Shown: positions 5,853 through 38,688, counted from the stretch's first letter. The stretch: 64,000 nt of DNA from a virus (IMGVR_UViG_3300035498_000319:1-64000), one strand, 5' to 3'. Notes: generated by a model not told the origin, from the letters alone. Made by a program: numbers and translations.

Positions 5853-6089
5853 AAAAATATCGTGGGCCTCGATTGAAGCCCACGTATAGTGAAAAATATT
5901 CTCTAAGATAGGTGAGGTAATATGGTATGGAAAAGTATGATCAAACCCGCAAATGACAGTCACAAATACATGATTTTTGGAGAAAGTATTTATATATTTA
6001 CAAGGAGGCGAATCCATGAAACACTCACTTAGATCAGTGAAGTATTACCTATCTATAGAGAATAGATGAAAGTAAGGAAAAATATCCTT
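5853..6089 (-). ncRNA. Putative late small RNA (~235 nt) with anti-SD/anti-AUG tracts
   Basis: Late promoter 6089-6100 (-), terminator hairpin 5861-5884 plus U-tract, long closing stem (~5897-5922 with ~6043-6064), no ORF on this strand. Confidence 0.55.
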
Positions 6090-6216
6090 ATTAAACTGTT
6101 CTATAATTATATATTATAGAAGTGAATAAAGGCAATAATGTAAAAAGACTTTAAGGATGTATTCTTTTCTAATATTAAAGGATAGAAATCTCATAATACT
6201 CTGAAGGAGGATTGGT

Positions 6217-6273
6217 ATGACAAAATATCTCTTAGCCCACATTGAAGGAGTTAAAAAATCTTTAGATAGTTAA
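6217..6273 (+). CDS. 18-aa micropeptide MTKYLLAHIEGVKKSLDS
   Basis: Strong AAGGAGG RBS 6 nt upstream of ATG; first ORF after early promoter 6108-6117. Confidence 0.45.
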   Translation: MTKYLLAHIEGVKKSLDS

Positions 6274-6288
6274 GGAGATATTTGAGTT

Positions 6289-6597
6289 ATGCGTTTTGAA
6301 TATTATGATGATCACGAGACAGTTGAGGATATTAGAGAAGAATATAGAAGAGATCACAGACGAGGGAAAACATTGCCAGGAACTTTGAATAAAGTTCGGT
6401 TCATGAGAGAATCTATGGCAAGAGAAAGAGAGAAACATCTTCAGCAATTAGAATTTGAAGACCAGATGGAATCTCAACCATTTGCTCTCAATATTAATCT
6501 GAGAAATAAATATCAGATTGAGAGAGCAATAAAATTCTTACAGACGGCATACGATGCTACTGGTGATGAAGTTGTCAGAGTACCTGACATCTTTTAA
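6289..6597 (+). CDS. Early hypothetical protein
   Basis: 102 aa, AAGGAG RBS, inside the early unit. Confidence 0.6.
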   Translation: MRFEYYDDHETVEDIREEYRRDHRRGKTLPGTLNKVRFMRESMAREREKHLQQLEFEDQMESQPFALNINLRNKYQIERAIKFLQTAYDATGDEVVRVPDIF

Positions 6598-6659
6598 ACA
6601 TAGATTCTAAACTCATTATTGCCTTTATTTTTTATCAGATGTGCCCTTTTTAGAGGCTC

Positions 6660-6671
6660 AACATAAAAATA
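6660..6671 (+). promoter_or_regulatory. Late promoter AACA-N6-TA (representative)
   Basis: Exact copies also at 1590(-), 5832(-), 6089(-), 10191, 16634(-), 24700(-), 28061, 30704, 37273(-), 38587, 47357(-), 47802, 49406, 50990, 56477. Confidence 0.8.
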
Positions 6672-6699
6672 AATTTATGATTCAAGGAGGTATAAATCC

Positions 6700-8409
6700 G
6701 TGAAGAAATATGACCAGATTCATGAAACGGTTCTTAAAACCGTCTTCGATCTATACGATGAAATTAACGATATTGCTGATAGGGGCGATTTGGACTTCTT
6801 AAATCGCCATAGAAACACAGCAAATTTGAGATCTATTGCTAGAGCTTCTAATGATCTCATCTGTGTGTTTCCAGTATTGTCTAGTAGAAATATCTCGATT
6901 GATGCGCAATCAATGATTAGTAAAGCCATTGAAAAGAATTGTGTGAGTATGTTGCAGATTCTTTTTTCTGCATACCAGCTAACCGATTCAAAAGATGCTA
7001 TAGACTATATCTCAACTTTCCATACAAATATCAATAAATCTGCTAAACTCTTCGATGTCGATGATCTTATTGATATCGCAGATGCTATTGAAGAGGGAGC
7101 TATTAGGGCAGGTATGCCCATTGATGGCGGAACTCTTCATGCTATTAAAGAAGATATGAGGAGATTGGATTATTATCTTCCTGATAATGTAAGTCCTAAA
7201 TCTCTTGAAGAGAGCTTTTCTTACAAGCTTGATCCTAAGGGAAACTTTAAAGTGGATATCGCTATCAAGAGACCTAAGAGAATGGTTACTGAGGAAGGCT
7301 ACGACGATTTTGATGACACGTCCGCCTGGTTCAAGAATCATCAAAGTGGAGAAGCATCTCCCGATAATTCTACTGATATGAAACTTACTTTAGCTTTGCT
7401 TGCAAATAGAGACCTCTATAATAATGTAGATAGTCTTAGAAAAGGCAATGCAGCCAAAGATAAAACTATTAAAAATCAGAGAAAGACTATTGAAAATCAA
7501 GGAAAAACTATTGCAGATCAAAATAAGGAAATTAGTCGATACAAAAGTCAAGCAGCATCCACTGGGAAGATTGCTCACTCTGAAATAGAAAAGAATAAGA
7601 AATTGCAAGATCAATTAAATAAGCAGCAAGCTCAAATTGATAGAATTACTGGTGATGATGCTAGACTAGAAAGAAATTCTAAGATGGCTAGAATGGCTAA
7701 GGATAGAGCAGATGCATCAAAGGCTGCTGTAGAGATTTATAATAAGCAGGTTCTTAATACCGAATATAAGAAAGCCAATGAACTTCAACCGACTCTTATG
7801 GTTGTAAACTTCCAGTCTAAGGTAGACGATGGATATGTATGTGTAGATAGTGTAGTCATTGGAGTTAAGGCTAAGCTGTATCCTGTTAATTCTGAAGATA
7901 TGATTACCCATATTGTATCTAAAGCTAAGGATCTTAACTGGGTACAGAAATTGATTAAGGCTAGTACTAGAGAAATCTCTTTCTTTAGAGATTTTCTTTT
8001 TGCTATAGATAAAGCTAAGATTGATGCTTTGTCTCTCTCTAGAAAGGGTTCTTCAAATAAGATGTGGAAGGTTCTGGAGAGAAGAGCAAATAAGAGCAGA
8101 TTTAATAGGCTGCTTGCTAGAAAGAATGATTCTACTGCTATTACTACTGTCATGGTATCTCAGAATGAAGTAGATTTCATGAATAAGCAGTATGGAGTAG
8201 ACATTGCAGATATTTCTATTGCAAGAGGATTACTGGATAAATATAACCTCTTAGGGATTTGTATTGTAGATGAATCCCTTGAGATTGCTAAATTCATGTG
8301 GGATACTGGAGAAGATATGTGGGAAACTATATCTTTCACTAATCTTGAACGTGAATCGAATGATAATACCTATAAGAAAGTCGTTAATCTTATGACGAAA
8401 GTTATGTAA
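6700..8409 (+). CDS. Virion structural protein with central coiled coil
   Basis: 569 aa, GTG start with AAGGAGG, late promoter 6660-6671, heptad repeats KTIxNQ. Confidence 0.55.
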   Translation: MKKYDQIHETVLKTVFDLYDEINDIADRGDLDFLNRHRNTANLRSIARASNDLICVFPVLSSRNISIDAQSMISKAIEKNCVSMLQILFSAYQLTDSKDAIDYISTFHTNINKSAKLFDVDDLIDIADAIEEGAIRAGMPIDGGTLHAIKEDMRRLDYYLPDNVSPKSLEESFSYKLDPKGNFKVDIAIKRPKRMVTEEGYDDFDDTSAWFKNHQSGEASPDNSTDMKLTLALLANRDLYNNVDSLRKGNAAKDKTIKNQRKTIENQGKTIADQNKEISRYKSQAASTGKIAHSEIEKNKKLQDQLNKQQAQIDRITGDDARLERNSKMARMAKDRADASKAAVEIYNKQVLNTEYKKANELQPTLMVVNFQSKVDDGYVCVDSVVIGVKAKLYPVNSEDMITHIVSKAKDLNWVQKLIKASTREISFFRDFLFAIDKAKIDALSLSRKGSSNKMWKVLERRANKSRFNRLLARKNDSTAITTVMVSQNEVDFMNKQYGVDIADISIARGLLDKYNLLGICIVDESLEIAKFMWDTGEDMWETISFTNLERESNDNTYKKVVNLMTKVM

Positions 8410-8437
8410 AAATCTTAATGAAGGGAGCGATAAAAAT

Positions 8438-10129
8438 ATGATTATTGGTCAAGAAGACTTCTTCGATGAAGAGTTTGAAGATGACTCTACTGAAGAAGTA
8501 ATGACTGAAGGAATTCTTGACGGTGAGAAACCTCCAAAAGACTTTATAAATTTTGCAGTAAATTTCTTTAAGAAGGTTGATAAGAAAAAACCTTTAACAA
8601 AAAGAGACTTTGAAGAAAAAATAAAAAAGAATGAAAGATTTTCTTATAATTTTGAATTGCAGAATCCTAAGAAAAATGCTGCTATTGGATATGCCAAAGC
8701 TTTTGGAAAAGGGCTTTTGCTTGGAGGTGTAGCTGGACTTACAGGGCCTGCCGCTCCAGGTGTAGCTGGCGCAGGATTGGTCTTAGACTATGATAGAGAA
8801 GAAAAGATTGCGAGAAAAGATCGTATAGAACTTGCAAAAGTTATAGAAAGTTGTGGAATTACAAAGAAGAATGAGCAAAAAGGAGAATTTGATAGATATA
8901 TAGTAAAAGGAGATTATGTCTATCACGCGTGGCCCGCTGTAGCAACATCTGCTGGAACTTACACCACTTACAGCATCAGCCTCAAATGCGAAAAGAAGGA
9001 TACTACCCTAGAAGCATTCTCAATGACTATTGATGAATATTTTGCCTGTAAGCCAGAGCATCAATATAAGAATGCTCAAGAGCTTTCTGAGACTTATAAT
9101 AGAAATGCTTTCTATAGAGATCCGATTTTTAATAGAGTCATTGCAGAGCATTTTGATCTCTCGGATGCTAAGACTCGTAAAGCACTTTTGAACTTAGATG
9201 AAGCTGGACAGAATAATGTAGTGTCTTCTCTTACTTCTAAGCTCTATGATAAGATTGTAGATAGATGCGATGATATAGATTATGGAGAGATTCCTGCTAC
9301 TAAAGGAGATATTACGAAGCTTTCTAGATATTCTGATATGAAAGAGACTATCTCTATCATTCATGATCTATTGAAAGAGTATAAGCAAGATAGTTCTCCT
9401 GTAGATGAACTCTCGGTTGCTATGTCTAATATAGAGACTCGTAGAGAAATGTTTGAGAGAGCATATCGGTATAACTCGGAATTACCTATGGCTATGTATT
9501 GCAATGTAGTACTGGGCATTATTACTGGTATCTCTTATATGATTGCCACTTGTATCGAGTTTGTTAAAGATCCGAATACACAGAACTTTAGAATTTCTCT
9601 TGATAAAGTAGCATATAATAAGTCTAAAGAGCATCTAATTTATAATTCTCTTAAGTCCTTTAATAGAACTTGTAAGAATAATGAATTTGATAAAGCTATG
9701 GAAGCTGTACTGAAGGGATCTACTAAGAATTTTGCTGGTGCTGCTATTGCTGGCGGTATTGCTATTGGAGTTCTTGGTACGATTGTAGTATTGATTCCTG
9801 TATTGAGAGAATTGATCTTCTTATTCTATTATATGAGAATGAGAATATCAGACTTCTTTGATATCCAAGCGGATCTGCTTCAGATGAATGCTTATGCATT
9901 AGAAGCTAATAATACTATGGATGAAAAGAAACGTAAAGAAGTTATGAAGAAACAGCTTAAGATTGCTGAGAACTTTAGAAAGGTCTCTAATACTTTTGCT
10001 TTTGATATTAAGAAAGCAGAAGCAGAGTCTGCTAAAGAGAAGAAAGAAGAAGATGATAATAAACTTCTGATCGATGATGTCGATACTGGAAGTGGAGATG
10101 ATACTTCTTCTACTTCTGCTTTATTCTAA
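8438..10129 (+). CDS. Virion (internal head) protein with acidic propeptide and glycine-rich hydrophobic segments
   Basis: 563 aa; acidic N-terminus ending VMTE-G; two Gly-zipper/TM-like stretches. Confidence 0.55.
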   Translation: MIIGQEDFFDEEFEDDSTEEVMTEGILDGEKPPKDFINFAVNFFKKVDKKKPLTKRDFEEKIKKNERFSYNFELQNPKKNAAIGYAKAFGKGLLLGGVAGLTGPAAPGVAGAGLVLDYDREEKIARKDRIELAKVIESCGITKKNEQKGEFDRYIVKGDYVYHAWPAVATSAGTYTTYSISLKCEKKDTTLEAFSMTIDEYFACKPEHQYKNAQELSETYNRNAFYRDPIFNRVIAEHFDLSDAKTRKALLNLDEAGQNNVVSSLTSKLYDKIVDRCDDIDYGEIPATKGDITKLSRYSDMKETISIIHDLLKEYKQDSSPVDELSVAMSNIETRREMFERAYRYNSELPMAMYCNVVLGIITGISYMIATCIEFVKDPNTQNFRISLDKVAYNKSKEHLIYNSLKSFNRTCKNNEFDKAMEAVLKGSTKNFAGAAIAGGIAIGVLGTIVVLIPVLRELIFLFYYMRMRISDFFDIQADLLQMNAYALEANNTMDEKKRKEVMKKQLKIAENFRKVSNTFAFDIKKAEAESAKEKKEEDDNKLLIDDVDTGSGDDTSSTSALF

Positions 10130-10263
10130 AATCTATTGCAAAAGCCCTAGAGTGATTGGTAATATTGCTCTAGGGCAAATTAGATTTATAAACATCTTAG
10201 TAAAATCTATATTTTGATTATATTATAGATGATATACCTAATATATAAGGAGGAAAAATAACT

Positions 10264-11451
10264 ATGCCTATTCTTTCTAACAATCGTTATGGCATGATGG
10301 GAACTCGTGTCATTGAAGCGAATGAAAGTTATAAGATTGGCGATATGGGTCGTATTCTTTACGAAGATGCTCGTAATGATATGGCTCTGTTTAACGCCGT
10401 TGTAAGATCTGATATGAGAGAAATCGCTGCCCGCAATGAGGGCAGTTTGCTTGAATCTGAACTGACTGCTCTGACTGAAGGCTCCGTGCGCGACTTCTTC
10501 TCCAGCCTGAAGGAAAAGGTTAAGAAGATTTGGGCTAAGATCAAGGGCTATATTAAGAGTGCCATTGCTAAGCTTGGCGCTTATTTCGTACGTGACGGCA
10601 AGAAGTTTGCTAAGATCTATCGTACTCGCCTTGGCAAGGTTAAGAACGATACTGATCTTGGCCATGTATGGATTCCTAAGAGCGAAAAAATTATTAGCCT
10701 TGAACTGAAGTATGATGATATTTCCATGAACCGCAATGGTATTGGTGGTAGAGGTGCATCTACTACTCGAATTACCGAAGACAGTGCAGAAGATGAAGTT
10801 AGGAATAGCATATTCAAAGGCTTTTGCAGCTCTTATGATGATGATGATGATTTTTACACTTGCATCAAAGAAGCAAATTTCAACGAAGTAACTAAGGCTG
10901 ACGTAAGTGATGTCGGTGGAGTAGGTAAAATAAAATCTTACCTTTCAACCATTGAAAATGGGAAATCTGCGCTCAAATCTTTGAAGAATACGGAAAATAA
11001 GATCGATAAACATTTTAGAAGTCTTGTTAAGGAACTCGACAAGGAAGAGAGAGCGATCGAGAGAAGAGATTATGATAACGGTGGCAATACCAACACTGAA
11101 AGAGATGGCTACACAGCAGGAACCAAAGCCTTAGATCAAAGTAATCTTGAGGCTAACAGAATCTGGGTAAATGCCAATTCTTATTGCTATAGCACTGCTA
11201 TCAAGGCAGAAATCCGTTTGTACAAGTTCGGACTCGGCGAAATGAAGAAGATCGTTGCCCGTGCTTGCGGCAATGCCTATAAGGTTGAATCTACTCTGCT
11301 TGAGGCCATGGTTCTTGAAGCAGAAGAGGTGGATCTCGAAGATGCAGATAAGGGCCTTACTGCACAGCAGGAAGAAGAAGTGCAAGAGCTGGTCAAAGAT
11401 ACCATCGAAGAACTGGCCAATGACAGCGATGATTCCGATGATGAGGATTAA
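10264..11451 (+). CDS. Internal head protein, jumbo-phage paralogue family
   Basis: LTE-G followed by amphipathic FFSSLKEKVKKIWAKIK; late promoter 10191-10202. Confidence 0.65.
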   Translation: MPILSNNRYGMMGTRVIEANESYKIGDMGRILYEDARNDMALFNAVVRSDMREIAARNEGSLLESELTALTEGSVRDFFSSLKEKVKKIWAKIKGYIKSAIAKLGAYFVRDGKKFAKIYRTRLGKVKNDTDLGHVWIPKSEKIISLELKYDDISMNRNGIGGRGASTTRITEDSAEDEVRNSIFKGFCSSYDDDDDFYTCIKEANFNEVTKADVSDVGGVGKIKSYLSTIENGKSALKSLKNTENKIDKHFRSLVKELDKEERAIERRDYDNGGNTNTERDGYTAGTKALDQSNLEANRIWVNANSYCYSTAIKAEIRLYKFGLGEMKKIVARACGNAYKVESTLLEAMVLEAEEVDLEDADKGLTAQQEEEVQELVKDTIEELANDSDDSDDED

Positions 11452-11477
11452 TTAAATTATAAAAGGAGGAATTAAAT

Positions 11478-12722
11478 ATGGGTTTCTATATTAACATGCT
11501 CCGTGAAAGCGGAGAAAGTAATGATGAATTCATGGGAAATCCTGGATTCGACGATACTCTGATCGGCGATGAAAAATCTACAGCCGATCTCAATAAGGTC
11601 GCACTTACTGTTATGAACAATAATGCTGAGAGGGCTGATGAAGCTTCTCAGGAAGAACTTGATGGGCAGGATTTCTCTGGAGATCCTGTAGAAGAGATGG
11701 CAATGGCCATTGCCGAATCTGAGCACAACTGGAATCTGATTTTCCAGGGAGTTGCTCGTAGAGAGATCTCCGAAGCTGCACGCGGCCGCGTAGTTGTGAC
11801 GGAAGGTCTTGATAGCATCAAGAGCTTCTTTGGTAAGATTAAGCTTTTCTTTGTCAAGCTGTTTAAGAAGATCACTGCTGTTGTAAAGCAGGTTCTTGGT
11901 AATCTTGGATCTATCTTCCATACCAATAAGGGCTTTGCTAAGAAGTATGGCTCTAAGCTTTCTAAAGGAAAGAAGGCTTATGAGGATAATTCTAAGAAAG
12001 ATCTTGAAGGATATCCTTTCTGGAATGCAGCTAAATCTACCGATGTTGATAGTATTATTACAACCACCGATAATGATGTAAAATCCTATACCACTAAACT
12101 TAAAACCATCATTTCATCTGGAGATGTAACTACGTACTCAAATGCGCTTGATGAAGATGAAGAAAAAAATGCCGATGAAATAAGAGGAAAGCTTCTTAAA
12201 AAAGGAAAAGCAATTAGCAGCGAAGACTGGAATGATGAATTGAAGAGGACTTTCTTTGGTTCGGAAGATCCGGAAATCATCCAACCTACTGCCGATTATA
12301 TCAAGCGGGCATTGGAATCGACAGGAAAGGATATCGACAAGATTAAGAAGAACTATGCAAAGCTTAAGACCACTTTTACAAAGATTATTAGTACCTTTGA
12401 TAAGCTTGAAAACAGCGCTAATAAGTGGTACGACAACGATGAACGAAAGAATGATGCGCAAAATGAAGAAAACAGATCAAGTAAGATTACGCAAATTACC
12501 AGAGAATCCACATACTATAAGAACTATATGAACATTTGCAATCAGGCATTTTCTATGTTCATGAAGTCTGTTCGCGCTCAGGGCATGCAGGCTCGTCGCG
12601 TTGCGCAGGCATGGATCTTTGCTCTGAATAAGAGCGACCGCGGCAAGGAGTGGGATAAGGCAGATAATATGCATGAGTCCTATACCGCTGGTGGTTATCT
12701 CGGAAATGTTCAGATGATCTAA
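11478..12722 (+). CDS. Internal head protein, paralogue of 10264..11451
   Basis: Acidic propeptide, VTE-G, then FFGKIKLFFVKLFKKI helix and GFAKKY (cf. KFAKIY). Confidence 0.65.
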   Translation: MGFYINMLRESGESNDEFMGNPGFDDTLIGDEKSTADLNKVALTVMNNNAERADEASQEELDGQDFSGDPVEEMAMAIAESEHNWNLIFQGVARREISEAARGRVVVTEGLDSIKSFFGKIKLFFVKLFKKITAVVKQVLGNLGSIFHTNKGFAKKYGSKLSKGKKAYEDNSKKDLEGYPFWNAAKSTDVDSIITTTDNDVKSYTTKLKTIISSGDVTTYSNALDEDEEKNADEIRGKLLKKGKAISSEDWNDELKRTFFGSEDPEIIQPTADYIKRALESTGKDIDKIKKNYAKLKTTFTKIISTFDKLENSANKWYDNDERKNDAQNEENRSSKITQITRESTYYKNYMNICNQAFSMFMKSVRAQGMQARRVAQAWIFALNKSDRGKEWDKADNMHESYTAGGYLGNVQMI

Positions 12723-12774
12723 TTCTCACATTTAGTCAACATAATTTCCATCTAAAGTGTTCTCCTAAATATAT

Positions 12775-12803
12775 TCCCCGAAGCTCCGGCTTCGGGGATT
12801 TTT
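12775..12803 (+). terminator. Intrinsic terminator
   Basis: TCCCCGAAGC/GCTTCGGGGA stem plus T-tract. Confidence 0.85.
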
Positions 12804-12868
12804 ATTACTTTTAACTTATAAGTAATTTACTATATTTTTAATTATACACATTTAGGAGGTTAAGATAT

Positions 12869-15307
12869 ATGAAACCTTTTTCTTCCTCTATTTTAAGTGT
12901 AAATGAATCGGCTGTTCAACAGCACTCTAATTCTTCTAATACACTTAAATCAATTAGAGAAAATACTATATATACTCTTCTAGAATTTAATGAAGACGTT
13001 GCTAAAGCAGATTTAGAATGTACAAAAGATTACTATATTAATCTGATTAAGCTCGCTAATAACCCGAATACATCGGATGATATTCATAGACCCATTTTCC
13101 ATCAATATGAAGCAGTAAGGACGGCTGCTGTTTCTCTTTTGCATTATGTAGATGGATGTGAAAATCCTGATAACGGCGCCAATACCAAATTGACAAAATT
13201 ATATCGCATTAGCAGTAAATTAAAAGATGTTTGTAAAAATGCAGGAGTTTCAGTAGATCTGTATACTCAAGATTCATGCGTTCTGCCAAATGCTATTCTC
13301 TCTGAAAGCTTATCTGCTATTTTGAATAATCAATGTAATAGAATCATTCAGGCTATTGCTTCTGGAGAAGACCTTGAAGATGTAGAATATACTGACTCAG
13401 AAGAAGTTCTTAATAGCATTGCCAAGCTCACTGGAATCAGTGATGAAGTATACGATATAGAAGACTTTGAAGAAGCATATGAAGATTTATTTGAGTTTAA
13501 TACTCGTACTATAAACTTCGCTTTAATTCCTGATAGCGCTGATGACAGCGATATTGGTTTGTGTATGCATAGACTGAATAGACCTATTGGGACTTATGGT
13601 ATCATTATAGATAATCATATTCTTGATACAGCTATTGCAAATTTGAAGGCAAATGCAGATAGATATAATCCGAATACTGTACGCGGACTTGTACAGAATA
13701 TCTGCAATATTATCTGTACAATTATATCTCTCACTGTCACTATTAAAGATATATGCAATCAGAAGCAAGTAGAGTTTATTGCTCATAATCTGAATGCTAT
13801 GAAAACTGCTCTTGGAGAAGAAATTGGTAATGATGAATGTACCGATCTTCTTATGACTGAAGCAGTTAGTATGTTTAATAATGAGCTTGATGCAAAGAGC
13901 TTATTTGATTCTATCAATGATGATCAATTTGCTCCCGATGACTTCACAGAGCTCTATAATAATGCTATTCAAGAATATGAGACGAATAAGATTAAAGCCT
14001 ATAAAGAAGGTCTTGTATTAGAAGCTAAGCTAATTGCTTCTAAGAATTATGCTGGACTTGTATCTGTTCAAGAAGGAGTCTGGTATAAGATTAAGGAAGC
14101 AGTTAGAAAGTTTGTAGATTGGATTAAGAAGACTTTCTCTAAGTTTAGCGAAGCTTTCTTATTCCATTTGGGAACAGAGAAGGCTTGGCTGGAGAAGTAT
14201 AGAAATACTATTCTGGCTGGAGGATTGTCTGATAAGGATGAAATCACTTTCGCAATCGACTATAAGAATGCTTTTGCTAATCTGATTACGAATGAACAGA
14301 AGTTGCAAGTTCCTCCTATCAGTTATCAAGACTTGATGAGTGGAGAAAAGTTCAATTTGAAGTCTGAGAATGAATCCGAGTTCTTTAAGGGAGCATTTCC
14401 TGCTATTGCTGCATTTGCAGATAAAACTGATGGAGAAACTGTAGCAGAGATTACTAAGACTTATTATGGCGCTCAGTATGAGAAAGGTAAATCTGCTGAC
14501 GATAATAAGATGCTTTGGTCTGCTATTAAACCTAATTTGGGTACATTGTATAAATGGATGCTTGATACTCAGAAGTCTTCCGATAATATCCATAAACAAA
14601 TTCAAGATATCGAAAGAACTGTAAATAATTATAATAATAGCGTGGAGGCTGCACAGAAGAAGATAGATAAAGAAAAGGCTGATGCTGCTGCTAATAATGC
14701 AGGAACTGGAGGAACACCTACGGGGCAGCCAGCAGAAGGGGAGAAACCAGCAAAAGAGCAGAGTGAAAAGGCAGAATCATTCTTGTCTCAATTTACTGGT
14801 TATACTAGTATGCTTGAGATGGAGGTTAATAAAGCTGAAGATACTAATTCTCAGTCTGGTAATAGTGGCGGCACTACAACCAATAACGATAACAGCAATA
14901 ATAATCTTAGAATGAATAAGAGCGATACAGATGCTTCTGTAAACGCTGCTAAGGAAGGTGGAGATCTTCCTGAAGTAGTGTCTAAGAGAATGGAAATCTA
15001 TATGCGTGTTACAACAGGCGTACTGAGTGCCAAGATGACAGCTTTGAATTCTGTTCATAAAGAAATTATGGGTTTATTTAGAGCTATCGTTAAAGCCAAG
15101 TTTGGCGAATCCGCCGACATCGTATATAAGAAACAAGAAGGAGAAACTACCACTTCCACTTCTACTGCCCCTGATAATAAATCTACTGAAACAAGCGAAG
15201 AAAGGAAAGACGGTACGCAAGTAGAACATCCAGGCGATACACTAATGGCTAAAAGTAGAGGTAGTCGTCCCGATCCTACTGCTGGAAGCACAACAGGTAA
15301 AAAATAA
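12869..15307 (+). CDS. Large internal head protein, same family in its C-terminal half
   Basis: VQE-G followed by WYKIKEAVRKFVDWIKK and WLEKY; several xxE-S/A sites. Confidence 0.6.
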   Translation: MKPFSSSILSVNESAVQQHSNSSNTLKSIRENTIYTLLEFNEDVAKADLECTKDYYINLIKLANNPNTSDDIHRPIFHQYEAVRTAAVSLLHYVDGCENPDNGANTKLTKLYRISSKLKDVCKNAGVSVDLYTQDSCVLPNAILSESLSAILNNQCNRIIQAIASGEDLEDVEYTDSEEVLNSIAKLTGISDEVYDIEDFEEAYEDLFEFNTRTINFALIPDSADDSDIGLCMHRLNRPIGTYGIIIDNHILDTAIANLKANADRYNPNTVRGLVQNICNIICTIISLTVTIKDICNQKQVEFIAHNLNAMKTALGEEIGNDECTDLLMTEAVSMFNNELDAKSLFDSINDDQFAPDDFTELYNNAIQEYETNKIKAYKEGLVLEAKLIASKNYAGLVSVQEGVWYKIKEAVRKFVDWIKKTFSKFSEAFLFHLGTEKAWLEKYRNTILAGGLSDKDEITFAIDYKNAFANLITNEQKLQVPPISYQDLMSGEKFNLKSENESEFFKGAFPAIAAFADKTDGETVAEITKTYYGAQYEKGKSADDNKMLWSAIKPNLGTLYKWMLDTQKSSDNIHKQIQDIERTVNNYNNSVEAAQKKIDKEKADAAANNAGTGGTPTGQPAEGEKPAKEQSEKAESFLSQFTGYTSMLEMEVNKAEDTNSQSGNSGGTTTNNDNSNNNLRMNKSDTDASVNAAKEGGDLPEVVSKRMEIYMRVTTGVLSAKMTALNSVHKEIMGLFRAIVKAKFGESADIVYKKQEGETTTSTSTAPDNKSTETSEERKDGTQVEHPGDTLMAKSRGSRPDPTAGSTTGKK

Positions 15308-15312
15308 TTTAT

Positions 15313-15340
15313 ATAGAGGTAGGCAAATGCCTACCTCTAT
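15313..15340. terminator. Bidirectional terminator between convergent genes
   Basis: ATAGAGGTAGGC/GCCTACCTCTAT. Confidence 0.8.
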
Positions 15341-29743: not shown

Positions 29744-29836
29744 GAAAATAATAGAGAGAATAGCTTTAGCTATTCTCTCTTTGAGTTATATATTATAATG
29801 ATGAAGACAATAGAATAATTTAAGGAGGATATTAAA

Positions 29837-30335: not shown

Positions 30336-30349
30336 GGAGGTAATTCTAT

Positions 30350-30526
30350 ATGCTAAGCACAATAGCTACTATACTAGCAACTATGGTAAGTAATAATGAA
30401 AACTCCGATGAAATAGATACAAACGATATTGAAGATGATATAGAATTCTTTTCAGAATCTATATCACTCGTAGTCGTTGTTACGGGAATCATTGCATTAG
30501 GCTGTAGATTGACTCTAATATGGTAA
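30350..30526 (+). CDS. 58-aa membrane protein not in the ORF track
   Basis: AAGGAGG RBS; C-terminal TM ending CRLTLIW. Confidence 0.55.
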   Translation: MLSTIATILATMVSNNENSDEIDTNDIEDDIEFFSESISLVVVVTGIIALGCRLTLIW

Positions 30527-30566
30527 ATTAAGAAAGATAGCTAAACAGCTATCTTTCTTTTTTAAT

Positions 30567-30640
30567 TGGAGCAGGTAATCAGGATCGAACTGACAACCTC
30601 ACCTTGGAAGGGTGATGTGTTACCATTACACTATACCTGC
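30567..30640 (-). tRNA. tRNA-Gly(UCC) with encoded CCA
   Basis: GCAGGTA/TACCTGC acceptor, anticodon loop CTTCCAA, GTTCGATCC T-loop; AACT-N6-TA promoter 30647-30658. Confidence 0.95.
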
Positions 30641-30750
30641 ACATCTAATATTTAGTTACTAAGTTAATTTTTTACTCTCGAAATGCAAATTTAATGAGAA
30701 AGTAACAAACGATTAATCTATGTACATTGATTAAGTAAGGTGATGACATT

Positions 30751-31530
30751 ATGAAGATGACGTTCAGACAGTATATCGAAAATCCTTTAGGAAAGAAAAA
30801 CGCGGTTTTCTCTCAACGGGATATGTACAAAGATTTGTATACTAAGAAATATGGGGCTGTTCTTCTTAGGGAGAATGGTACCTTTGTCACCGAATTGTAC
30901 TATGATAAAAAGACAGATTGTTACTATTGCTATATGAAAATCCCTTCAGAAGTAGTAGAGAAATTCTACTATGATGTAGTGATAGAGTTCTACCCAATAG
31001 ATGCTACCAATGCAACAGCAAACGATCTGACGAATTATGGTGCTAGGTTCTGGTCTAATGATCCGGCCTTTGTATTTACTTATCAATACGTATTTTCCAA
31101 GAACGAACTATTCATCGACCAATTTAAAGCTAAGTCTTCTAAGATTGCTTTAAAGCAAAAACCTGATGAAAGAAATCCTTATGGGATTCCTGGATATGTG
31201 AAATCTCTTTATTTCTGTTATCTTCATATGAAGTCTAGAAGTTTGTTTAATAAGGTTTATTGGAGGCAGAACGCAAGGCCTTATAATCAATTATTGCTTC
31301 TAAACAAATTGGAGAAAGCAGATAAGAAGATTGCAGATAGACAGCGGTTAGGAGCGGAGGTGGCTAAAAAGAAGAGGAAAGAGCAATCTAAATCCTCGAC
31401 TAAACCTGCTGTCCAAAAGCCTATTCCGAAGGCTGGTAGTATAGTCAACGTAGTTAAGCCTAAGTCTCCTATCAAGGGAAAGACTAGTACAAATAAGAAT
31501 ACAAATGTGAGGGTGATAAATAAAAAATAA
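30751..31530 (+). CDS. Late hypothetical protein with basic C-terminal tail
   Basis: 259 aa, late promoter 30704-30715. Confidence 0.6.
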   Translation: MKMTFRQYIENPLGKKNAVFSQRDMYKDLYTKKYGAVLLRENGTFVTELYYDKKTDCYYCYMKIPSEVVEKFYYDVVIEFYPIDATNATANDLTNYGARFWSNDPAFVFTYQYVFSKNELFIDQFKAKSSKIALKQKPDERNPYGIPGYVKSLYFCYLHMKSRSLFNKVYWRQNARPYNQLLLLNKLEKADKKIADRQRLGAEVAKKKRKEQSKSSTKPAVQKPIPKAGSIVNVVKPKSPIKGKTSTNKNTNVRVINKK

Positions 31531-31572
31531 TTATATATTATCTTAGTGAATACCGACAAGGAGGAATTCGTA

Positions 31573-33964
31573 ATGAAAGAAGAAAAACGAGAACTGATAG
31601 ACCCTTTAGAGTTTTACGAACATGAAGAGTTTATACCAGTGGACGAGTGGACTCCTACCAAGGAGGAAATGATATTCACAACTACGAAAGGTGCTATTAT
31701 AGCTGATGTCTCTGGCTACTTTGGAGACAGTCATCAAAGCGCTAGTAATACCTTTGTAATGAGTCCAAAGCGGTCTTATAATTCCGTAGCTATGCGAGAG
31801 CATATCACTTTATATCTGAATTACTTTGAGAGATTCTATGATAGAGATCATCAGCTTTTCTCAACCTATTGCAGAATAAAGTATATGATCGATCATGAGG
31901 AAGGATATACGAAGAGTATGTTCTTCTTTGATCTAATGAAGTATATCATACGTGGTCCGATAGAGATGAAGACCATGAATATGAATGCTGCTAATTATTG
32001 CCTTAGCTTGAATTATAAGTCCCGTACTAGTTCTTCTCTTCAGTATAATGATGAACATGCTATGCTGATGATGAAGATCTCGGTACAAATAAATCAAATC
32101 ATTCCTCTTCTATGTCATTTCATGTATTCCAGAAAAATACAGAATACGTCTGACTTTTTGTTTGAAATATATGATAAGGTCATAGATGGGTATGATATAG
32201 ATATCTATTCTAAATTGTATGAGACAGCGTATTCCAATGTAATAAGATCCGTCAAGCAGAATCCTATTATATGGGGTAAGCAATCTATTAGAGGTAATGA
32301 CCCTATAACTCATGCAATGCAGTCAGTTCAGAATATCCTGATAAATATTATATGCAAATATGTGTATAATGGGAATTTAATACACCTTGAATTCAGGGCA
32401 GCATAATAGCAATATTATGACTGAATTCTCCTTAATTGCTGGGAACTCTCTGAGGAGACAATCAGCAGCTAAGCAATATTATATAAAGAAAGGAAGTGAT
32501 ATTGAAAGTTCAACGACTATCGAAAGGATATCTTAGAAGAAATATCTAAGAGAATAACCGAGTAGAGTAGGATAATAAATCCGAAATGGGAGACATCCCT
32601 AGTATGGTAAAAGTATTAGGGATGAAGATATAGTCTAGTCTCCATAGCGATATGGGGTAGTTACGAAATTATAATTCCGTTATCAGGAACACCGGATATC
32701 AAATCACCAATATCGAATACGAATATGCTTTTGTTGCTCTTAGTAGTAGCAAGAGAGACGAGGATTAAGTTACTACGAATATAACACTAATTTATTCGAG
32801 TAGATTCAGTCCCCTTGATATGGAAACATAACAAGGAAAAACCATTTGAATTGCTGGGAAGCCGTAAAGCCTTTATGCCACAACGGAGCGATTTTTATGC
32901 ATACGTGAAGGAGATGAAAATCTGAAAGAAGTTAAAGGATGCTATATGGGGAAACTCTAAGTAGTAATCAGTAATCGGTAATCAGCAGCTAAGCACAGTG
33001 CTGTGCGAATCGGAAGTTGAATATATTGGATATCTTTAGGACCAGATAGGTGCAAGACCTATATCCAATACCATAATGATTTTAAAATGTAAGCAAAAGA
33101 TCCTTATGTAAGTTATAAACCTAATAGACCGGTATAATTACCGGAGGAAGGAGCAAGCGCGCACAAGCACAGACGAAAGTTCAACGACTATCGAAATCTT
33201 ATTGTATCGCTCACTGAGTTAAAGATATAGTAAAGAGAGTAGAGTAGGGTAGTTCAATACTGTAGAGCTATCCGAAGTGGATGGGGCCCTAACGGAGAAT
33301 GCCGAGGGTTATGATATAGTCTATTGTCTGTAGAAATACAGAATGTAAAAAGATGAATTCTGAATTCGATAAATTTGAGTCTTATATTACTAAAGCAGAT
33401 GCTGCTCTAGCAATGCAGAATCAAATAGGTGCTGATGAAGCAATGAAACTAATCAGACAAAGATTTGGACCCTTCGATCCAGAAGAGATAAGATTCTTTA
33501 AGAGAAGACTCTCTGATGAGACTGGAAGGGTTAAGATTAATAGTCTACAGAAGATGCTTGTATTCAATCTATTCTATAAGTATTTTCTGGATACGCAGGC
33601 TGTTAATTGTATCAATCTGGATGATTATATCACTCTTATACTTGCGGCTAGAAAGATTCTAGAAGAGAATGGCATGTATCTACTTGCTGCTATAACCTCT
33701 TCTAAAGTTGTAAGAATGGCTACAAGAAAGAATGTGAATAAGAAAGAACTAACTAAACTAGAAGGCAGTGAAGTCTATACTTCTATTAGAGAGAAGTATA
33801 GAAATGATAAAATAGAAAAACAAATTCTAGGAATCATTGCGGCTGTCTTAAGTTCCGACTTCGAGTATATCAATTTCCATGATAAAGAAATCGATGGAAG
33901 AAGTATAAATGTCACGGCTGAAATTGCTTCAGAGGAAATTCTTATGTATGTGAATATGATATGA
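31573..33964 (+). CDS. Sigma-like promoter-specificity subunit of non-virion RNAP (AR9 gp226/phiKZ gp68-like); exons 31573-32387, 32666-32765, 33353-33964; 508 aa
   Basis: Spliced frame continuous (LIHL/NYNSV...KRDED/MNSEFDKFE); KRSY, IIPLLCHF, SKLY, IIW, INSLQ, SEEIL match my recollection of gp226; early promoter 31532-31541. Confidence 0.75.
32388..32665 (+). ncRNA. Group I intron 1 (ORF-less, 278 nt)
   Basis: AATTGCTGGGAA (P), AATCAGCAG (Q), GTTCAACGACTA (R), GATATAGTCT (S); P1 U32387-G32396; terminal G. Confidence 0.9.
32766..33352 (+). ncRNA. Group I intron 2 (ORF-less, 587 nt, large P5 and P6 extensions)
   Basis: Same P/Q/R/S elements; P1 GGAT|T with AGTCC; P10 GATTCA with exon TGAATT; terminal G33352. 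Confidence 0.9.
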
Positions 33965-34049
33965 TTAGACACGTACATAAGAATTATATAGATAAAAATG
34001 GACAGTTTACAATCTGTCCATTTTTATTTTTTTAACTATAATATTAAAG

Positions 34050-34333
34050 ATATGCGGATATATAGTAAGACTCCTATAAAGTTATTTATCGGTGGGAGCA
34101 TTGAATTCTGCGAATATATCTTTACCACCCGACTCCCGTAGTCAAACTACATTCAAACAAGTCACTCTCAAGTCACATTTTTAAATGGTGGAAAGATTAA
34201 CGCACTTTCCATCCATGCACCGAAAAACAGGGTATCATATTTAACCAGAAAAACTCCAAAATTCTTGAATCAATTTTCTCTCTGTCTACTGCGTATTTAT
34301 CGGCCCATGCATTTGGGCCGATAAATTCTTTTT
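34050..34333 (+). ncRNA. Putative structured ncRNA (~280 nt)
   Basis: No ORF; ends pair (ATATGCGG/CTGCGTAT), internal hairpins, strong terminator ~34288-34333. Confidence 0.5.
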
Positions 34334-34405
34334 AATCATATATTATAGTAATGCCTTAGATATATATTATAACCAAAACAGACAAATAAACGGAGGCGAT
34401 TAATT

Positions 34406-34834
34406 ATGATTAATATATTTAAGAATAGAATTAAAATTGGAGCAAGTTATATACTAGATAAGAATAATTCTCTTAAGCTGTATGAATATGATCCCGTAGT
34501 GGTAAGAGTAGTAAAACGAACCGGCTTTAATAAATATAGAGTTATTCCTGTAGCTCCTGTATTATTACCGGCAGAAAGTGAAGACTCTTATTCCTTAAGG
34601 CATTTGGATGTGAAAAGAGAATTACTAACTAGAATAGATGATTCTAATAAGACTATAGTAGTTAGATTTCCGTCTAATATGCCTGTATTTAGCGATGTAG
34701 ATATAATAAAGCTAGATGGCATCGTCAAGTCTACTGAAATGGGATTTGCATTAAATAAATCTCAGATAACCGATTTATCTAAGATTGCTTGTAAGATCGC
34801 TTTAGCCCATAGAATTGCTAATATAGAGGTGTAA
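34406..34834 (+). CDS. Early hypothetical protein
   Basis: 142 aa, GGAGG RBS, tandem early promoter motifs 34338-34370. Confidence 0.6.
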   Translation: MINIFKNRIKIGASYILDKNNSLKLYEYDPVVVRVVKRTGFNKYRVIPVAPVLLPAESEDSYSLRHLDVKRELLTRIDDSNKTIVVRFPSNMPVFSDVDIIKLDGIVKSTEMGFALNKSQITDLSKIACKIALAHRIANIEV

Positions 34835-34839
34835 GTAGT

Positions 34840-35109
34840 ATGGAAGAGTTAAGAGATCCTATAGTATTTAAAGATCCGGAATCTAAGTTGGAGAATTATA
34901 TCTCTATGAGATTATTGCGTATGGATTTATTAAATCTAAGAAAGTCAGAGAAATTAAGTCAGAAAGATGTATCTTATAAATCCGGTTTATCTATGTCTTG
35001 TATATCTGGTATTGAAAATGATGGATCTGTAAGTCCTTATTTGAAATCCGTTATTAAGTATATAGACGCTTTAGGATATGAGATATGTCTCAGAAAGAAA
35101 GAAGTATAG
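34840..35109 (+). CDS. XRE-family helix-turn-helix protein
   Basis: LRK...LSQKDVS..SGLS..CISGIEN...P.LKSV. Confidence 0.85.
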   Translation: MEELRDPIVFKDPESKLENYISMRLLRMDLLNLRKSEKLSQKDVSYKSGLSMSCISGIENDGSVSPYLKSVIKYIDALGYEICLRKKEV

Positions 35110-36166
35110 AAGAATGAATAATAGGAATGAAAGTACTGAAGCATTTGAAGCTTTAAAAGCATACTTGATTAAGAATGAAAATGCTATTATAGCTTCAGGA
35201 GGAAGAGAAGTAGTTAAGAGATGCCACTTCTGTGGTGACTCTAGAGATCTATCATCTCGCCATTTATATATTGGCTTAAAAGATGATGGAAGTATAAAGT
35301 ATAATTGTTTTAAGTGCCAATCGCATGGAACTGTCGATGGAGAATTTCTAAGAAATATTGGATGCTATGATGGAGATTTAATCAGAAAGATCATAGAATC
35401 ATCCTCTAAATGTACTTCTAGACAATATATCGATAAAACGCGAATTCATAAAATAGCCAATCCTATACTAACGTATAGAGATGCTCCTGAGACGTATAAA
35501 AAACTTGAAAGTATCAATAAGCGTTTAGGAGTATCTCTATCTTTAAATGATATTACTAATCTGAGAATAGTATTAAATCTATATGATTATCTAAATGCAA
35601 ATCATATAGGGATTACTAGAGCAAAAGATGTAGCAGATCAATTAGATATGTTCTTCTTAGGATTCTTATCCGTTGGCTTCGATATGATTATTATGAGACG
35701 CTTAGTACCAGAAGGAAAGTTATATTCTGGCATAGATACTCGATATGTCAACTATAATATTTATAATAGTAGATCGGTGAATAAGTTCTATTTTATCCCT
35801 ACTAAAGTAGATACTTTATATCCTATAGAAGTTCATATAGCGGAAGGCCCATTCGATATTCTAGGAGTATATCTAAATACGAATGCTAATAAAGTCAATT
35901 CTATATTTGCATCTGCTGGAGGAAAAGATTATGCAAGTTTGATTAATTTCATTATCATGAGTTCTCAGATTATGAATTTCGATCTCCATATTTATGCAGA
36001 TAATGACAACTCTGACAATATATTAATAAAGAATATACAGAGAGTTAGACCATTCTGTAGAAGCGTGATCATACACAGAAATGTGTATGAAGGACAAAAG
36101 GATTATGGAGTCTCAAGAGATCTAATTATAGATCGGGCCTATAATCCAAACAGTATTAATTATTAG
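35078..36166 (+). CDS. DNA primase (T4 gp61-like; likely start 35114)
   Basis: CHFCGD...NCFKC zinc-binding domain, EGPFD and ADND TOPRIM motifs, KD motif. Confidence 0.85.
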   Translation: MRYVSERKKYRRMNNRNESTEAFEALKAYLIKNENAIIASGGREVVKRCHFCGDSRDLSSRHLYIGLKDDGSIKYNCFKCQSHGTVDGEFLRNIGCYDGDLIRKIIESSSKCTSRQYIDKTRIHKIANPILTYRDAPETYKKLESINKRLGVSLSLNDITNLRIVLNLYDYLNANHIGITRAKDVADQLDMFFLGFLSVGFDMIIMRRLVPEGKLYSGIDTRYVNYNIYNSRSVNKFYFIPTKVDTLYPIEVHIAEGPFDILGVYLNTNANKVNSIFASAGGKDYASLINFIIMSSQIMNFDLHIYADNDNSDNILIKNIQRVRPFCRSVIIHRNVYEGQKDYGVSRDLIIDRAYNPNSINY

Positions 36167-36180
36167 AGGAGGAAATCATA

Positions 36181-36609
36181 ATGAGAACCACAGACGAGCA
36201 ATGCACCTTCACTATGAGAAAAACTAGACCAGCAAATAGAGTTAGATCGTTTCCTTTTCTTAACGATATTAACTATAGGTCCATGTATGTAAGCGAAGCT
36301 TTAAAGTATTCAGGAATGGATACTTTACATATAATCAAAACTCTATATTACACCTCTAAGATTTATCTAATTCCTTTACTGATTAAATGCTCAGTAAATG
36401 GGACTATCAATAGTGATAAACTACGTAAGTATAAGAGTGGTAAATATAGGATGCCTACAGAGCTTACATACTATGACTATGAACTAAATGGAAAAGGATA
36501 TAGATTAGATTTTAGATATGACTGGCTATATAAAGATAATAAAGAAGAGGTCAGATACGACTATAAGAAGGATAATATCCGATCCTTCTTGCAAAAAAGA
36601 GAGAGCTAA
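36181..36609 (+). CDS. Hypothetical protein
   Basis: 142 aa, GGAGG RBS. Confidence 0.55.
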   Translation: MRTTDEQCTFTMRKTRPANRVRSFPFLNDINYRSMYVSEALKYSGMDTLHIIKTLYYTSKIYLIPLLIKCSVNGTINSDKLRKYKSGKYRMPTELTYYDYELNGKGYRLDFRYDWLYKDNKEEVRYDYKKDNIRSFLQKRES

Positions 36610-36632
36610 CTAAAGCTCTCTCTTTTTTATAT

Positions 36633-37106
36633 TTATCTTCTTCTCTTCTTTTTTCTGCGTATTACATTGTTAGCAGTTTGATTTGTAGCATTGGTAGTTT
36701 CTTCCACAGTCTCCTCTTCTTCATCCTCAGTCTCTTCCTCTTCTTCTTCGGAAGATTCCTCTTCGGTGACTTCAGGCTCAGTGGAAATTTCCTCTTCTAC
36801 TGTCTCTTCTTGAATTGCCTGGGTTTCTACGACAGTAGAAGTGGACTCTTGAACTACAGGATTCTTTGCAGCTTCTCTAGCAAGTCTGGTCTGAAGATCA
36901 GCTTCAAAATCATATCTGAAGTTATTAGTGTTCAGACGTACAGTGGAACCATCAGAGAGCACTTCGTCTACAATAGCTCCTCTACAGAGACACTTAAGAA
37001 TATTTCCGAGATTCATCTTAATCTTAGTATGTACCCCATAGATAGGAGGCTGAACATTCTTTACAGGAATATTAGCCTTAATATTTACAGTCTTAATTAC
37101 AGCCAT
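36633..37106 (-). CDS. Late protein with Glu-rich tail and basic C-terminus
   Basis: 157 aa, GAGGAG RBS. Confidence 0.6.
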   Translation of the reverse strand: MAVIKTVNIKANIPVKNVQPPIYGVHTKIKMNLGNILKCLCRGAIVDEVLSDGSTVRLNTNNFRYDFEADLQTRLAREAAKNPVVQESTSTVVETQAIQEETVEEEISTEPEVTEEESSEEEEEETEDEEEETVEETTNATNQTANNVIRRKKKRRR

Positions 37107-37108
37107 AT

Positions 37109-37249
37109 TTAAATCTCCTCCATAGTAGAGCTATAGTCATCGTCTTCTCTATCGAGAACATCTACAAATTCATAGTCTTCATCGCCAACTACTTCTTGAA
37201 ACATATTTAGCTTCAGGTCTTCATGAAACAGTCTTTCAACGTCATTCAT
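37109..37249 (-). CDS. 46-aa acidic peptide not in the ORF track
   Basis: AAGGAGG RBS, late promoter 37273-37284; MNDVERLFHEDLK... Confidence 0.55.
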   Translation of the reverse strand: MNDVERLFHEDLKLNMFQEVVGDEDYEFVDVLDREDDDYSSTMEEI

Positions 37250-37275
37250 AATAGATTCCTCCTTAATAAAGTTAT

Positions 37276-38505
37276 TTAGTTGTTTTCGGATGTCGTGCTT
37301 AACACATTATTTTTTAGATAGGAACTCAGAATAAAGATATATATAGGAATCAGATAGAAAGCTGATTGCTCATCTGCTATATCTAAATCATGAACGCAAT
37401 CTGCAACAAACTGAGTCATATAATCTTCATCATCATTCATATAAGAAATCAGCACATTATATATCTTTTTAGAACTATTATCATCAAATAGCTCATTATC
37501 TAGAATGTGTTGAATAACTTCTTCATCTAGTACAGTGAATCTAGTCTTAAGAGTATCTTTATCATTATACTTAATCTGGTAATAGTCTTGCAGTCTATTT
37601 ACGAATAGAGAGTTAGCATCAGTAATCAAATCTGCTGTGGCAAATACAAGATTACCAAAGCATTTCAAGTCATGACTTTCTATAGCATATAAGAAAGACT
37701 TAGAGTACTCATAACCGAAGAAAGGACTTACATATGTCTGATGTCCTACATACATATATTTATCTCCATATGACATAAGACTATTTCTTCTAATGAACTC
37801 TATTAGATATGGATCATAGAAGTTCCATGTATCTCTAAACTTAAATACAAAAGTTTGTACTCTTGAATCATAGAATAGAGAATTATAATAGTTTACAAGA
37901 GATTCTTGTAGTTCTTCTATAGAAGTAGCTAAATTATATTCTTCATCTGAAATGAGACAGTTAAATTCTGTCCCTACATATTCTACAATGAATTTATATG
38001 TAGCTACTACTTGGTCTTTAATCTTCTCACTATTATCCACCAATTCAAGATGGAATTCTATCTTATAGATATTGGCTCCAGTATCCAATGTATCTGGAGA
38101 TACAGAGTCTACTTTGAATAATAGATCTTCTTTAATATAATTTATAGAAAAGAAGTCTCCTGGCAATGGCTCTATTGTATTAGGAAGAATAGTGCAATCT
38201 CCAGAAATAGCATTAGCCTCTACTCCATTATCTCCAACATCATATTCTACTGTAATATCAGGAAGTCCATAGAGAAGGAACTCGTTGATTTGATTAAATT
38301 TAATAGCAGACTGATCTGATACATGAGCATACTGCATATGAGACGCCCTATCAAGAGTAGTCTTCTTTATATTTTGCTTATAATAGGTTACAGGTGTAGG
38401 TTTCTTATCCGAGAATAAATAATACGGGTTATTCAATTTACTCTTACTACTCTCTACGAGACTATTAAGAGTATTGAGGTATGATGTATTTGTAAAACTA
38501 CCCAT
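37276..38505 (-). CDS. Virion structural protein, possibly neck/head-tail
   Basis: 409 aa; ILPNTIEPLPGDFF...FKV motif typical of jumbo neck-like proteins. Confidence 0.45.
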   Translation of the reverse strand: MGSFTNTSYLNTLNSLVESSKSKLNNPYYLFSDKKPTPVTYYKQNIKKTTLDRASHMQYAHVSDQSAIKFNQINEFLLYGLPDITVEYDVGDNGVEANAISGDCTILPNTIEPLPGDFFSINYIKEDLLFKVDSVSPDTLDTGANIYKIEFHLELVDNSEKIKDQVVATYKFIVEYVGTEFNCLISDEEYNLATSIEELQESLVNYYNSLFYDSRVQTFVFKFRDTWNFYDPYLIEFIRRNSLMSYGDKYMYVGHQTYVSPFFGYEYSKSFLYAIESHDLKCFGNLVFATADLITDANSLFVNRLQDYYQIKYNDKDTLKTRFTVLDEEVIQHILDNELFDDNSSKKIYNVLISYMNDDEDYMTQFVADCVHDLDIADEQSAFYLIPIYIFILSSYLKNNVLSTTSENN

Positions 38506-38597
38506 AGTTCTATAACCTCCTTTACACTTAATTATAAGTTGTCTATGCCAAAATGAGTGGTTTTGTATTAATCTAAGAAGTATATAAACATATATTT

Positions 38598-38688
38598 AAT
38601 CCATACCTCCTATGGATGACGGTTTTCTTTCTTGTGTTTCCTAAGATATAATTACAGAGTGGTTTTATACCACTCTGTAATCTCTTTT
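38598..38688 (+). ncRNA. Putative ~90-nt late sRNA with CCUCC hairpin loop
   Basis: AACA-TATATT-TA at 38587-38598, 7-bp stem with loop CCTCC, terminator 38651-38688. Confidence 0.55.

What the first reader, a model, noticed from the sequence alone, without database searches (positions are those of the whole stretch)
5853..38688. Candidate system: a family of late phage small RNAs displaying anti-Shine-Dalgarno sequences
Seen: three ORF-less intergenic units (5853-6089 minus, 34050-34333 plus, 38598-38688 plus). Each ends in an intrinsic terminator, two start at an exact late promoter, and all are enriched in C/U tracts (CCUCC, CUCC, UUUCC), sometimes preceded by CAU (anti-AUG). Inference: phage-encoded translational repressors or decoys that pair with ribosome-binding sites of host or early phage mRNAs, like C-rich-loop sRNAs of Firmicutes (RNAIII, RsaE). 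I know of no description of such a set in AR9-like phages.
Basis: inference. Interest (0 to 1): 0.8.

Follow-up and report, generated by a model that had tools for sequence, protein, structure and literature searches.

The report
Jumbo-phage late anti-ribosome-site small RNAs
An uncultured giant phage related to AR9 very probably makes two protein-less RNAs late in infection that display the mirror image of ribosome-binding sites and may turn translation down; the third RNA proposed does not fit, and no transcript or target has been shown.

Summary
Partly confirmed. In this AR9-like jumbo phage contig, units 1 (minus strand, 6089-5853) and 3 (plus, 38598-38688) look like real stand-alone late RNA genes: a matrix trained on AR9's mapped late promoters ranks their promoters 1st and about 6th among 186,000 positions, and each ends in an oriented terminator. 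Unit 3 shows CCUCC in a fully unpaired 5' loop; a distant phage has the same layout, and AR9 has a very strong mapped start giving a similar ORF-less RNA. Unit 1 has a probable homologue in one distant phage that keeps two anti-start modules but not the opposite-strand micro-ORF frames. Across related loci, strong-promoter ORF-less units are about threefold enriched in anti-Shine-Dalgarno words. Unit 2 has no good promoter, no enrichment and no homologue. The three share no sequence, so this is a class, not a family. The best target hint is a late virion gene (6700), not early genes; it is suggestive only. Host targets and expression were not tested. The scan noted such units before in at least 45 other genomes (unchecked notes).

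The parts
6089..6100 (-). Late (non-virion RNAP) promoter of unit 1, start at 6089; back to back with an early promoter on the plus strand
   Evidence: exact consensus; top matrix score in the contig
5853..6089 (-). Unit 1: ~237-nt predicted RNA, 5' hairpin, long closing helix, two anti-start modules, terminator
   Evidence: fold z -6.2 whole, -4.5 without terminator; next gene has its own late promoter at -5843
6002..6020 (-). Unit 1 module A: CAU, 7 nt, CCUCC; also resembles the 16S 3' tail in sense
   Evidence: kept in L086 unit; about half unpaired; 16S match reached by 2% of random windows
5932..5952 (-). Unit 1 module B, box 1 (21 nt, 19 identical in L086)
5914..5920 (-). Unit 1 module B, box 2 (UUACCUC, anti-SD), 11 nt after box 1 in both phages, unpaired probability 0.96
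5861..5884 (-). Intrinsic terminator of unit 1
6687..6725 (+). Candidate target: SD and first codons of late virion gene 6700-8409 (AR9 g214/gp213 homologue)
   Evidence: best non-self site for module B in the contig, 24/28 pairs; best start region for module A; not best by energy or alignment
38587..38598 (+). Late promoter of unit 3, pointing against both flanking genes
38598..38688 (+). Unit 3: 91-nt predicted RNA
   Evidence: fold z -6.25
38599..38617 (+). 5' hairpin of unit 3 with CCUCC loop (38606-38610), unpaired probability 1.0
38651..38681 (+). Terminator of unit 3 (may also end the convergent 38688-40046 mRNA)
34050..34333 (+). Unit 2: ORF-less stretch between two terminators after the sigma-like gene; doubtful member
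   Evidence: no strong promoter, body z -1.2; no anti-SD excess; no homologue
34056..34069 (+). Possible degenerate promoter of unit 2; four close relatives have an AATA-N6-TA motif at this spot
34295..34326 (+). Terminator ending unit 2, upstream of the early promoter of the primase operon
5922..6069 (+). Opposite-strand SD-led micro-ORFs (5922-6032, 5927-5956, 6016-6069); no promoter upstream on that strand; read as the mirror of the anti-start modules

Best explanation
Units 1 and 3 are genes for small RNAs made by the phage's non-virion RNA polymerase late in infection. They present unpaired anti-Shine-Dalgarno sequence (unit 1 also anti-start-codon and anti-early-codon sequence), pair in trans with ribosome-binding regions and lower initiation on a limited set of mRNAs. 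For unit 1 the likeliest phage target is the neighbouring late virion gene 6700, which suggests tuning of virion-protein amounts rather than shut-off of early genes. Shown: promoters, terminators, predicted folds, one probable homologue, class-level enrichment, a mapped analogous start in AR9. Inferred: transcription here, pairing, repression, the target. Unit 2 is probably something else.
For: Promoter ranks; oriented terminators; starts fall exactly at the first base pair of a 5' hairpin in units 1 and 3. AR9 start 75478(-), second-highest step height in Table S3 of PMC5312081, yields a ~65-nt ORF-less RNA with unpaired 5' CCUCC and a 16-bp terminator; its GGAGG mirror is not the SD of g090. 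L145 unit: late promoter, 5' hairpin with CCUCC loop of different stem sequence, terminator. Survey: 11/19 strong-promoter units carry anti-SD words vs 31/228 weak ones; 0.96 vs 0.32 per 100 nt; Poisson p 3e-4 without this genome. L086 unit keeps modules A and B in order with conserved spacing; score reached by 1 of 6000 random windows; micro-ORF frames differ. Both modules rank gene 6700 first. Units 1 and 3 pair with phage start regions better than shuffles.
Against: No expression data. Per-unit enrichment is weak; the plain-regex version of the survey gave only p 0.06 and no excess of units; pattern counts in five relatives were no higher than control. Unit 1 is absent from the same spot in ~60 relatives and its box occurs in 1 of 50 genomes; unit 3 is not syntenic. 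Target 6700: module A reaches only the top 8% of pseudo-seeds, module B duplex is only about -20 kcal/mol, co-folding and local alignment do not rank 6700 first, and box-1 positions that mismatch 6700 are nevertheless conserved. The 6700 homologue of the L086 phage is not on its contig, so co-variation is untested.
Confidence: 0.55

Rival explanations
1. The RNAs are mimics of the 16S rRNA 3' tail acting as protein or ribosome decoys (Era, RbfA, bS21/bS1) or as indiscriminate SD sponges, not target-specific repressors.
For: Module A matches the 16S tail in sense at 13 of 15 positions (135, real sequences from 131, 132); conserved box 1 contains GAUCA, the element Era reads together with CCUCC (PMC10582724); no clear target by energy.
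Against: The 16S match is reached by about 2% of random windows; GAUCA is separated from CCUC by 17-19 nt; unit 3, L145 and the AR9 RNA lack GAUCA; a general sponge would hit the phage's own strong late SDs.
Confidence: 0.15
2. Real late RNAs, but aimed at conserved host mRNAs rather than phage mRNAs.
For: Box 1 is 19/21 identical between phages whose proteins are ~45-58% identical, including positions that mismatch gene 6700.
Against: The only exact hit of the box in 185,579 genomes is a Verrucomicrobial coding-type context; host unknown; wobble-tolerant host search not possible.
Confidence: 0.12
3. Unit 1 is the antisense of decayed small genes or a decayed duplicate of gene 6700's 5' end; unit 3's loop and the promoters are incidental; the RNAs, if made, do nothing.
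For: Perfect SD-ATG spacing on the opposite strand; MEKYDQ versus VKKYDQ, 4 of 5 residues, more than any of 3655 real gene pairs; poor conservation.
Against: No promoter on the micro-ORF strand; best promoter of the contig drives the other strand; structure z -4.5; frames not kept but nucleotides kept in L086; no DNA-level duplication signal.
Confidence: 0.13
4. Cis roles only: promoter-terminator pairs that insulate or interfere with convergent and divergent transcription; sequence between them is free.
For: Short promoter-terminator pairs without anti-SD exist at 49417 and 56488; the unit-2 site holds unrelated sequences in relatives or nothing. This is the likeliest reading for unit 2.
Against: Does not explain the enrichment with promoter strength or a non-syntenic homologue of unit 1.
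Confidence: 0.05

Closest known systems
C-rich-motif sRNAs of Staphylococcus aureus and other Firmicutes (RsaE/RoxS, RNAIII; PMC2790875)
   Same: Stand-alone RNA with 5' hairpin, unpaired C-rich word complementary to SD sites, intrinsic terminator; specificity expected from flanking nucleotides.
   Different: Phage-encoded, read by a phage polymerase; word is CCUCC/ACCUC (the 16S tail) rather than UCCC; no sequence homology (Rfam negative); no probing, toeprint or target shown.
AR9 late 'antisense' transcripts, starts 75478(-) and 115851(+) (PMC5312081, Table S3)
   Same: Same promoter class; short ORF-less unit with C-rich 5' single strand and strong terminator; identical in PBS1 and kept in Internexus.
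   Different: Published only as antisense starts, never described as sRNA; no sequence homology to units 1-3; CCUCC is in a free 5' tail, not a loop.
c4 antisense RNA of phages P1/P7 (own knowledge; not tested by reading)
   Same: Phage RNA with two unpaired boxes complementary to the ribosome-binding region of a nearby gene.
   Different: c4 is processed from the operon it controls in temperate phages; here a separate late unit of a lytic jumbo phage; no Rfam C4 match.
phiR1-37 non-coding RNAs misc_1-10 (PMC4848604)
   Same: Expressed ncRNAs in a related jumbo phage, one between genes.
   Different: Mostly antisense to genes; no anti-SD display reported; no function shown.

Membership tests
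C-rich SD-binding trans-acting sRNAs (RsaE-like) | Own promoter and intrinsic terminator, no protein product | tested here: met
   Units 1 and 3; unit 2 lacks a good promoter
C-rich SD-binding trans-acting sRNAs (RsaE-like) | C-rich word unpaired | tested here: met
   Predicted only: unit 3 loop 1.0, unit 1 box 2 0.96, module A ~0.5
C-rich SD-binding trans-acting sRNAs (RsaE-like) | C-rich word conserved across homologues | tested here: inconclusive
   One probable homologue for unit 1, one layout analogue for unit 3 (102), none for unit 2 (139)
C-rich SD-binding trans-acting sRNAs (RsaE-like) | Discrete stable transcript | not testable with these tools
C-rich SD-binding trans-acting sRNAs (RsaE-like) | Pairs with target SD and blocks initiation | tested here: inconclusive
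   Computed pairing only; 6700 first by pair count, not by energy
Any Rfam family (RsaE, RNAIII, C4, others) | Score at or above the family's gathering threshold | tested here: not met
One homologous family made of units 1-3 | Shared sequence or fold among the three | tested here: not met
   No cross-hits; different folds (9-11)
Translated micro-ORF arrays (opposite strand) | Promoter on that strand and conserved reading frame | tested here: not met
16S-tail mimic (Era ligand) | Contiguous unpaired GAUCA-CCUCC after a helix | tested here: not met
   Split or imperfect in unit 1, absent in unit 3

The most novel reading that the evidence does not exclude
AR9-like jumbo phages repeatedly evolve a late layer of small RNAs that copy the 16S rRNA 3' tail and compete with ribosomes (or ribosome-assembly factors) for start sites, setting the balance of virion proteins or damping host translation, a mode of lytic-phage control with no described example.
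Probability: 0.25. Interest if true: 0.85.

Novelty: new variant of a known kind. Interest (0 to 1): 0.58.

Why it matters
Small-RNA control in strictly lytic jumbo phages is almost undescribed; my searches found no paper on anti-SD RNAs in this group. If real, these phages add a post-transcriptional layer to their two-polymerase programme. The idea is directly testable in a cultured model: AR9's start at 75478, one of its strongest late starts, predicts a ~65-nt RNA with a free CCUCC that was filed as antisense and not followed up.

Tried and rejected
Rfam at gathering and loose thresholds: nothing. BLAST of units 1 and 2 against GenBank phages: nothing. Exact unit-3 hairpin in IMG/VR: none; loosened pattern gave one true analogue and seven chance hits. 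Syntenic conservation: unit 1 absent in ~60 relatives, a different short unit in L127; unit 3 neighbourhood rearranged. Regex survey inconclusive; promoter-plus-CCUCC pattern no higher than control. Protein searches for the 56-aa and 36-aa frames: none, or repeat artefacts. Long perfect complementarity in the contig: no longer than shuffles. Unit 3 targets (47866, 56036, 62338): no better than pseudo-seeds; 47866 has no homologue in five relatives. Duplication of 6700's 5' end as origin of unit 1: rank 4-24 of 86. Unit 3 versus the L116/L117 unit: not significant, p 0.11. Unit 2 against 48 related genomes: only 17-35-nt chance-level hits. Model of module B in 48 genomes and 25 loci: only L086. 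ENA/Logan genomes of the closest relatives could not be searched whole.

Full report
Setting. The window is bases 1-64000 of a 93,313-base virus contig, 35% G+C. Flanking proteins match virion proteins, primase and a non-virion polymerase subunit, and the nearest cultured relatives are AR9/PBS1, BpSp, staphylococcal jumbo phages and LPJP1 at 25-31% identity. Closer uncultured relatives reach 55-76%. AR9 late promoters are AACA-N6-TA/G, early ones AAATATATATTAT-N6-G (PMC5312081).

Observation. An exact late consensus is cheap in this A/T-rich DNA, so I trained a matrix on 92 mapped AR9 late starts. Unit 1's promoter is the best-scoring position of the whole contig and unit 3's is within the top six; unit 2 has none. 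The gene after unit 1 has its own late promoter right behind the terminator, so unit 1 is not a leader. Unit 3 points against both neighbours. Without terminators, only unit 1 folds better than shuffles (z -4.5); unit 3 keeps a perfect 7-bp 5' hairpin with CCUCC as loop. Counted singly, the C/U words are barely or not enriched. No Rfam family matches and the three units do not resemble each other.

Class-level test. In 1.66 Mb of fetched relatives I listed ORF-less promoter-to-terminator units. With the plain consensus there was no excess of units and a weak excess of anti-SD words (8/19 against 20/93, p 0.06). With matrix scores, strong-promoter units carried anti-SD words in 11 of 19 cases against 31 of 228 weak ones, 0.96 against 0.32 per 100 nt (p 5e-5; 3e-4 without this genome). 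Caveats: two versions were tried, two rows are near-duplicates, a few units are tRNA-like, and SD words rise slightly too. AR9 supplies experimental support for the layout: the start at 75478(-) has the second-highest step height in Table S3 and begins a ~65-nt stretch with unpaired CCUCC and a 16-bp terminator; the mirrored GGAGG does not serve g090. A second start (115851+) is similar. This lead came from note e1-5496371 and I checked it.

Unit 3. A distant phage (L145/L169) has, at another place, a late promoter followed at once by a hairpin of different stem sequence with a CCUCC loop, a U-rich linker and a terminator. The opposite-strand GGAGG is one base from its ATG, so no gene start. 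No target stands out.

Unit 1. It is missing at this spot in about 60 relatives. The survey, however, found in L086 (IMG/VR 3300029305_005341, behind the prohead protease gene) a 93-nt late unit that keeps module A and module B in order: a 21-nt box with 19 identities, an 11-nt variable spacer, then UUACCUC. One of 6000 random windows scored as high; with 15 outside strong units to choose from, chance is about 0.003-0.005. The opposite-strand micro-ORFs are not kept: the ATG lies 5, 10 or 6 bases before the box and L086 reads MNKV-stop. The 36-aa and 56-aa frames have no homologues and no promoter serves the plus strand. No further homologue appeared in 50 genomes.

Targets. Units 1 and 3, not 2, pair with phage start regions better than shuffles, as any anti-SD would; early genes are not favoured. 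With boxes defined by the L086 alignment, the best non-self site in the contig is the SD and first codons of gene 6700 (24 of 28 pairs, next 22); module A also ranks 6700 first; the L086 module likewise scores the MKKYDQ-type starts highest among 58 homologues. Against this: many pairs are G-U, the duplex is about -20 kcal/mol, energy, co-folding and alignment rankings do not single out 6700, and I knew of the MEKYDQ likeness from note e1-5841624 before testing. I put 6700 as a true target at about 0.4. Gene 6700 is a late virion gene homologous to AR9 gp213.

Unit 2. It sits after the terminator of the intron-split sigma-like gene. Four close relatives have an AATA-N6-TA motif, 70-230 unrelated bases and a hairpin at this spot; L009's version has two CAU-N6/7-CUCCU modules; others have nothing. 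The window's version has a degenerate motif, no CCUCC, no significant fold and no homologue. It may be a transcript, but nothing ties it to the anti-SD idea.

Mechanism. Most likely the late polymerase makes units 1 and 3; a 5' hairpin protects them (by analogy with Rsa RNAs, PMC2790875); the unpaired CCUCC seeds on an SD and flanking bases extend the duplex, blocking 30S loading. All steps after transcription signals are inferred. A rival is mimicry of the 16S tail: module A matches it at 13 of 15 and box 1 holds GAUCA, which Era reads, but the match is not rare and the motif is split.

Verdict. Two probable late sRNAs of a recurring but sequence-diverse class, working like C-rich Firmicute sRNAs without belonging to a known family; one doubtful unit; no expression or target proof. 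Earlier unchecked notes of this scan report similar units in at least 45 other genomes; I count them as leads, not support.

Noticed in passing
L005 ~14890-15080, L008 ~12920-13110, L116 6700-6900 (early leader after the unit-2 site): Conserved SD plus minigene M-I-x-stop (third codon G, V, Y) followed by further SD-led short ORFs in an early leader; looks like a translated minigene array.
   Followed up: no
L009 14150-14340 (-), L119 and L121 ~6690-6880 (+): 187-nt C/U-rich unit with two CAU-N6/7-CUCCU modules at the unit-2 site; indels between strains break the opposite-strand micro-ORF frame.
   Followed up: partly
L145 1560-1573 (+) and L107 3202-3215 (-): Two non-syntenic late promoter-terminator units in different phages share an exact 14-mer just before the terminator.
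   Followed up: partly
L116 2524 (-), L117 2527 (-): Strong late promoter, 5' hairpin, CAU-N9-CUCCUUU, terminator: another clear candidate of the class.
   Followed up: partly
G000 92006-92340 (+), outside the window: Late promoter, 7-bp stem closing a C/U loop with CAU-N7-UUCCU, then hairpins; possible further member.
   Followed up: partly
window 49406-49470 and 56477-56535 (+): Late promoters followed within 20 nt by a strong hairpin, no anti-SD; 49417 is syntenic with the L145 unit.
   Followed up: partly
G000 73496-74258: 763-nt gap with six or seven tandem 16-nt repeats and A/T-rich palindromes; origin-like.
   Followed up: no
window 6217-6273 (+): SD-led 18-aa ORF in the early leader of the 102-aa gene; relatives keep a similar element (MTAH...) at this spot.
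   Followed up: no
window 32378-32657 and 60844-61123 (+); 30567-30640 (-): Two group I introns (sigma-like gene, gyrB-like gene) and a tRNA-Gly with its own late promoter.
   Followed up: no
L005 15374 (-), L122 7498 (+), AR9 208874 (+): Late units holding tRNA-like fragments (D-arm-like stretches), the AR9 one from a strong mapped start.
   Followed up: no
window 37109-37249 (-), 30350-30526 (+): Small SD-led ORFs (46 and 58 aa) below the usual cut-off; the 46-aa one is called in relatives too.
   Followed up: no
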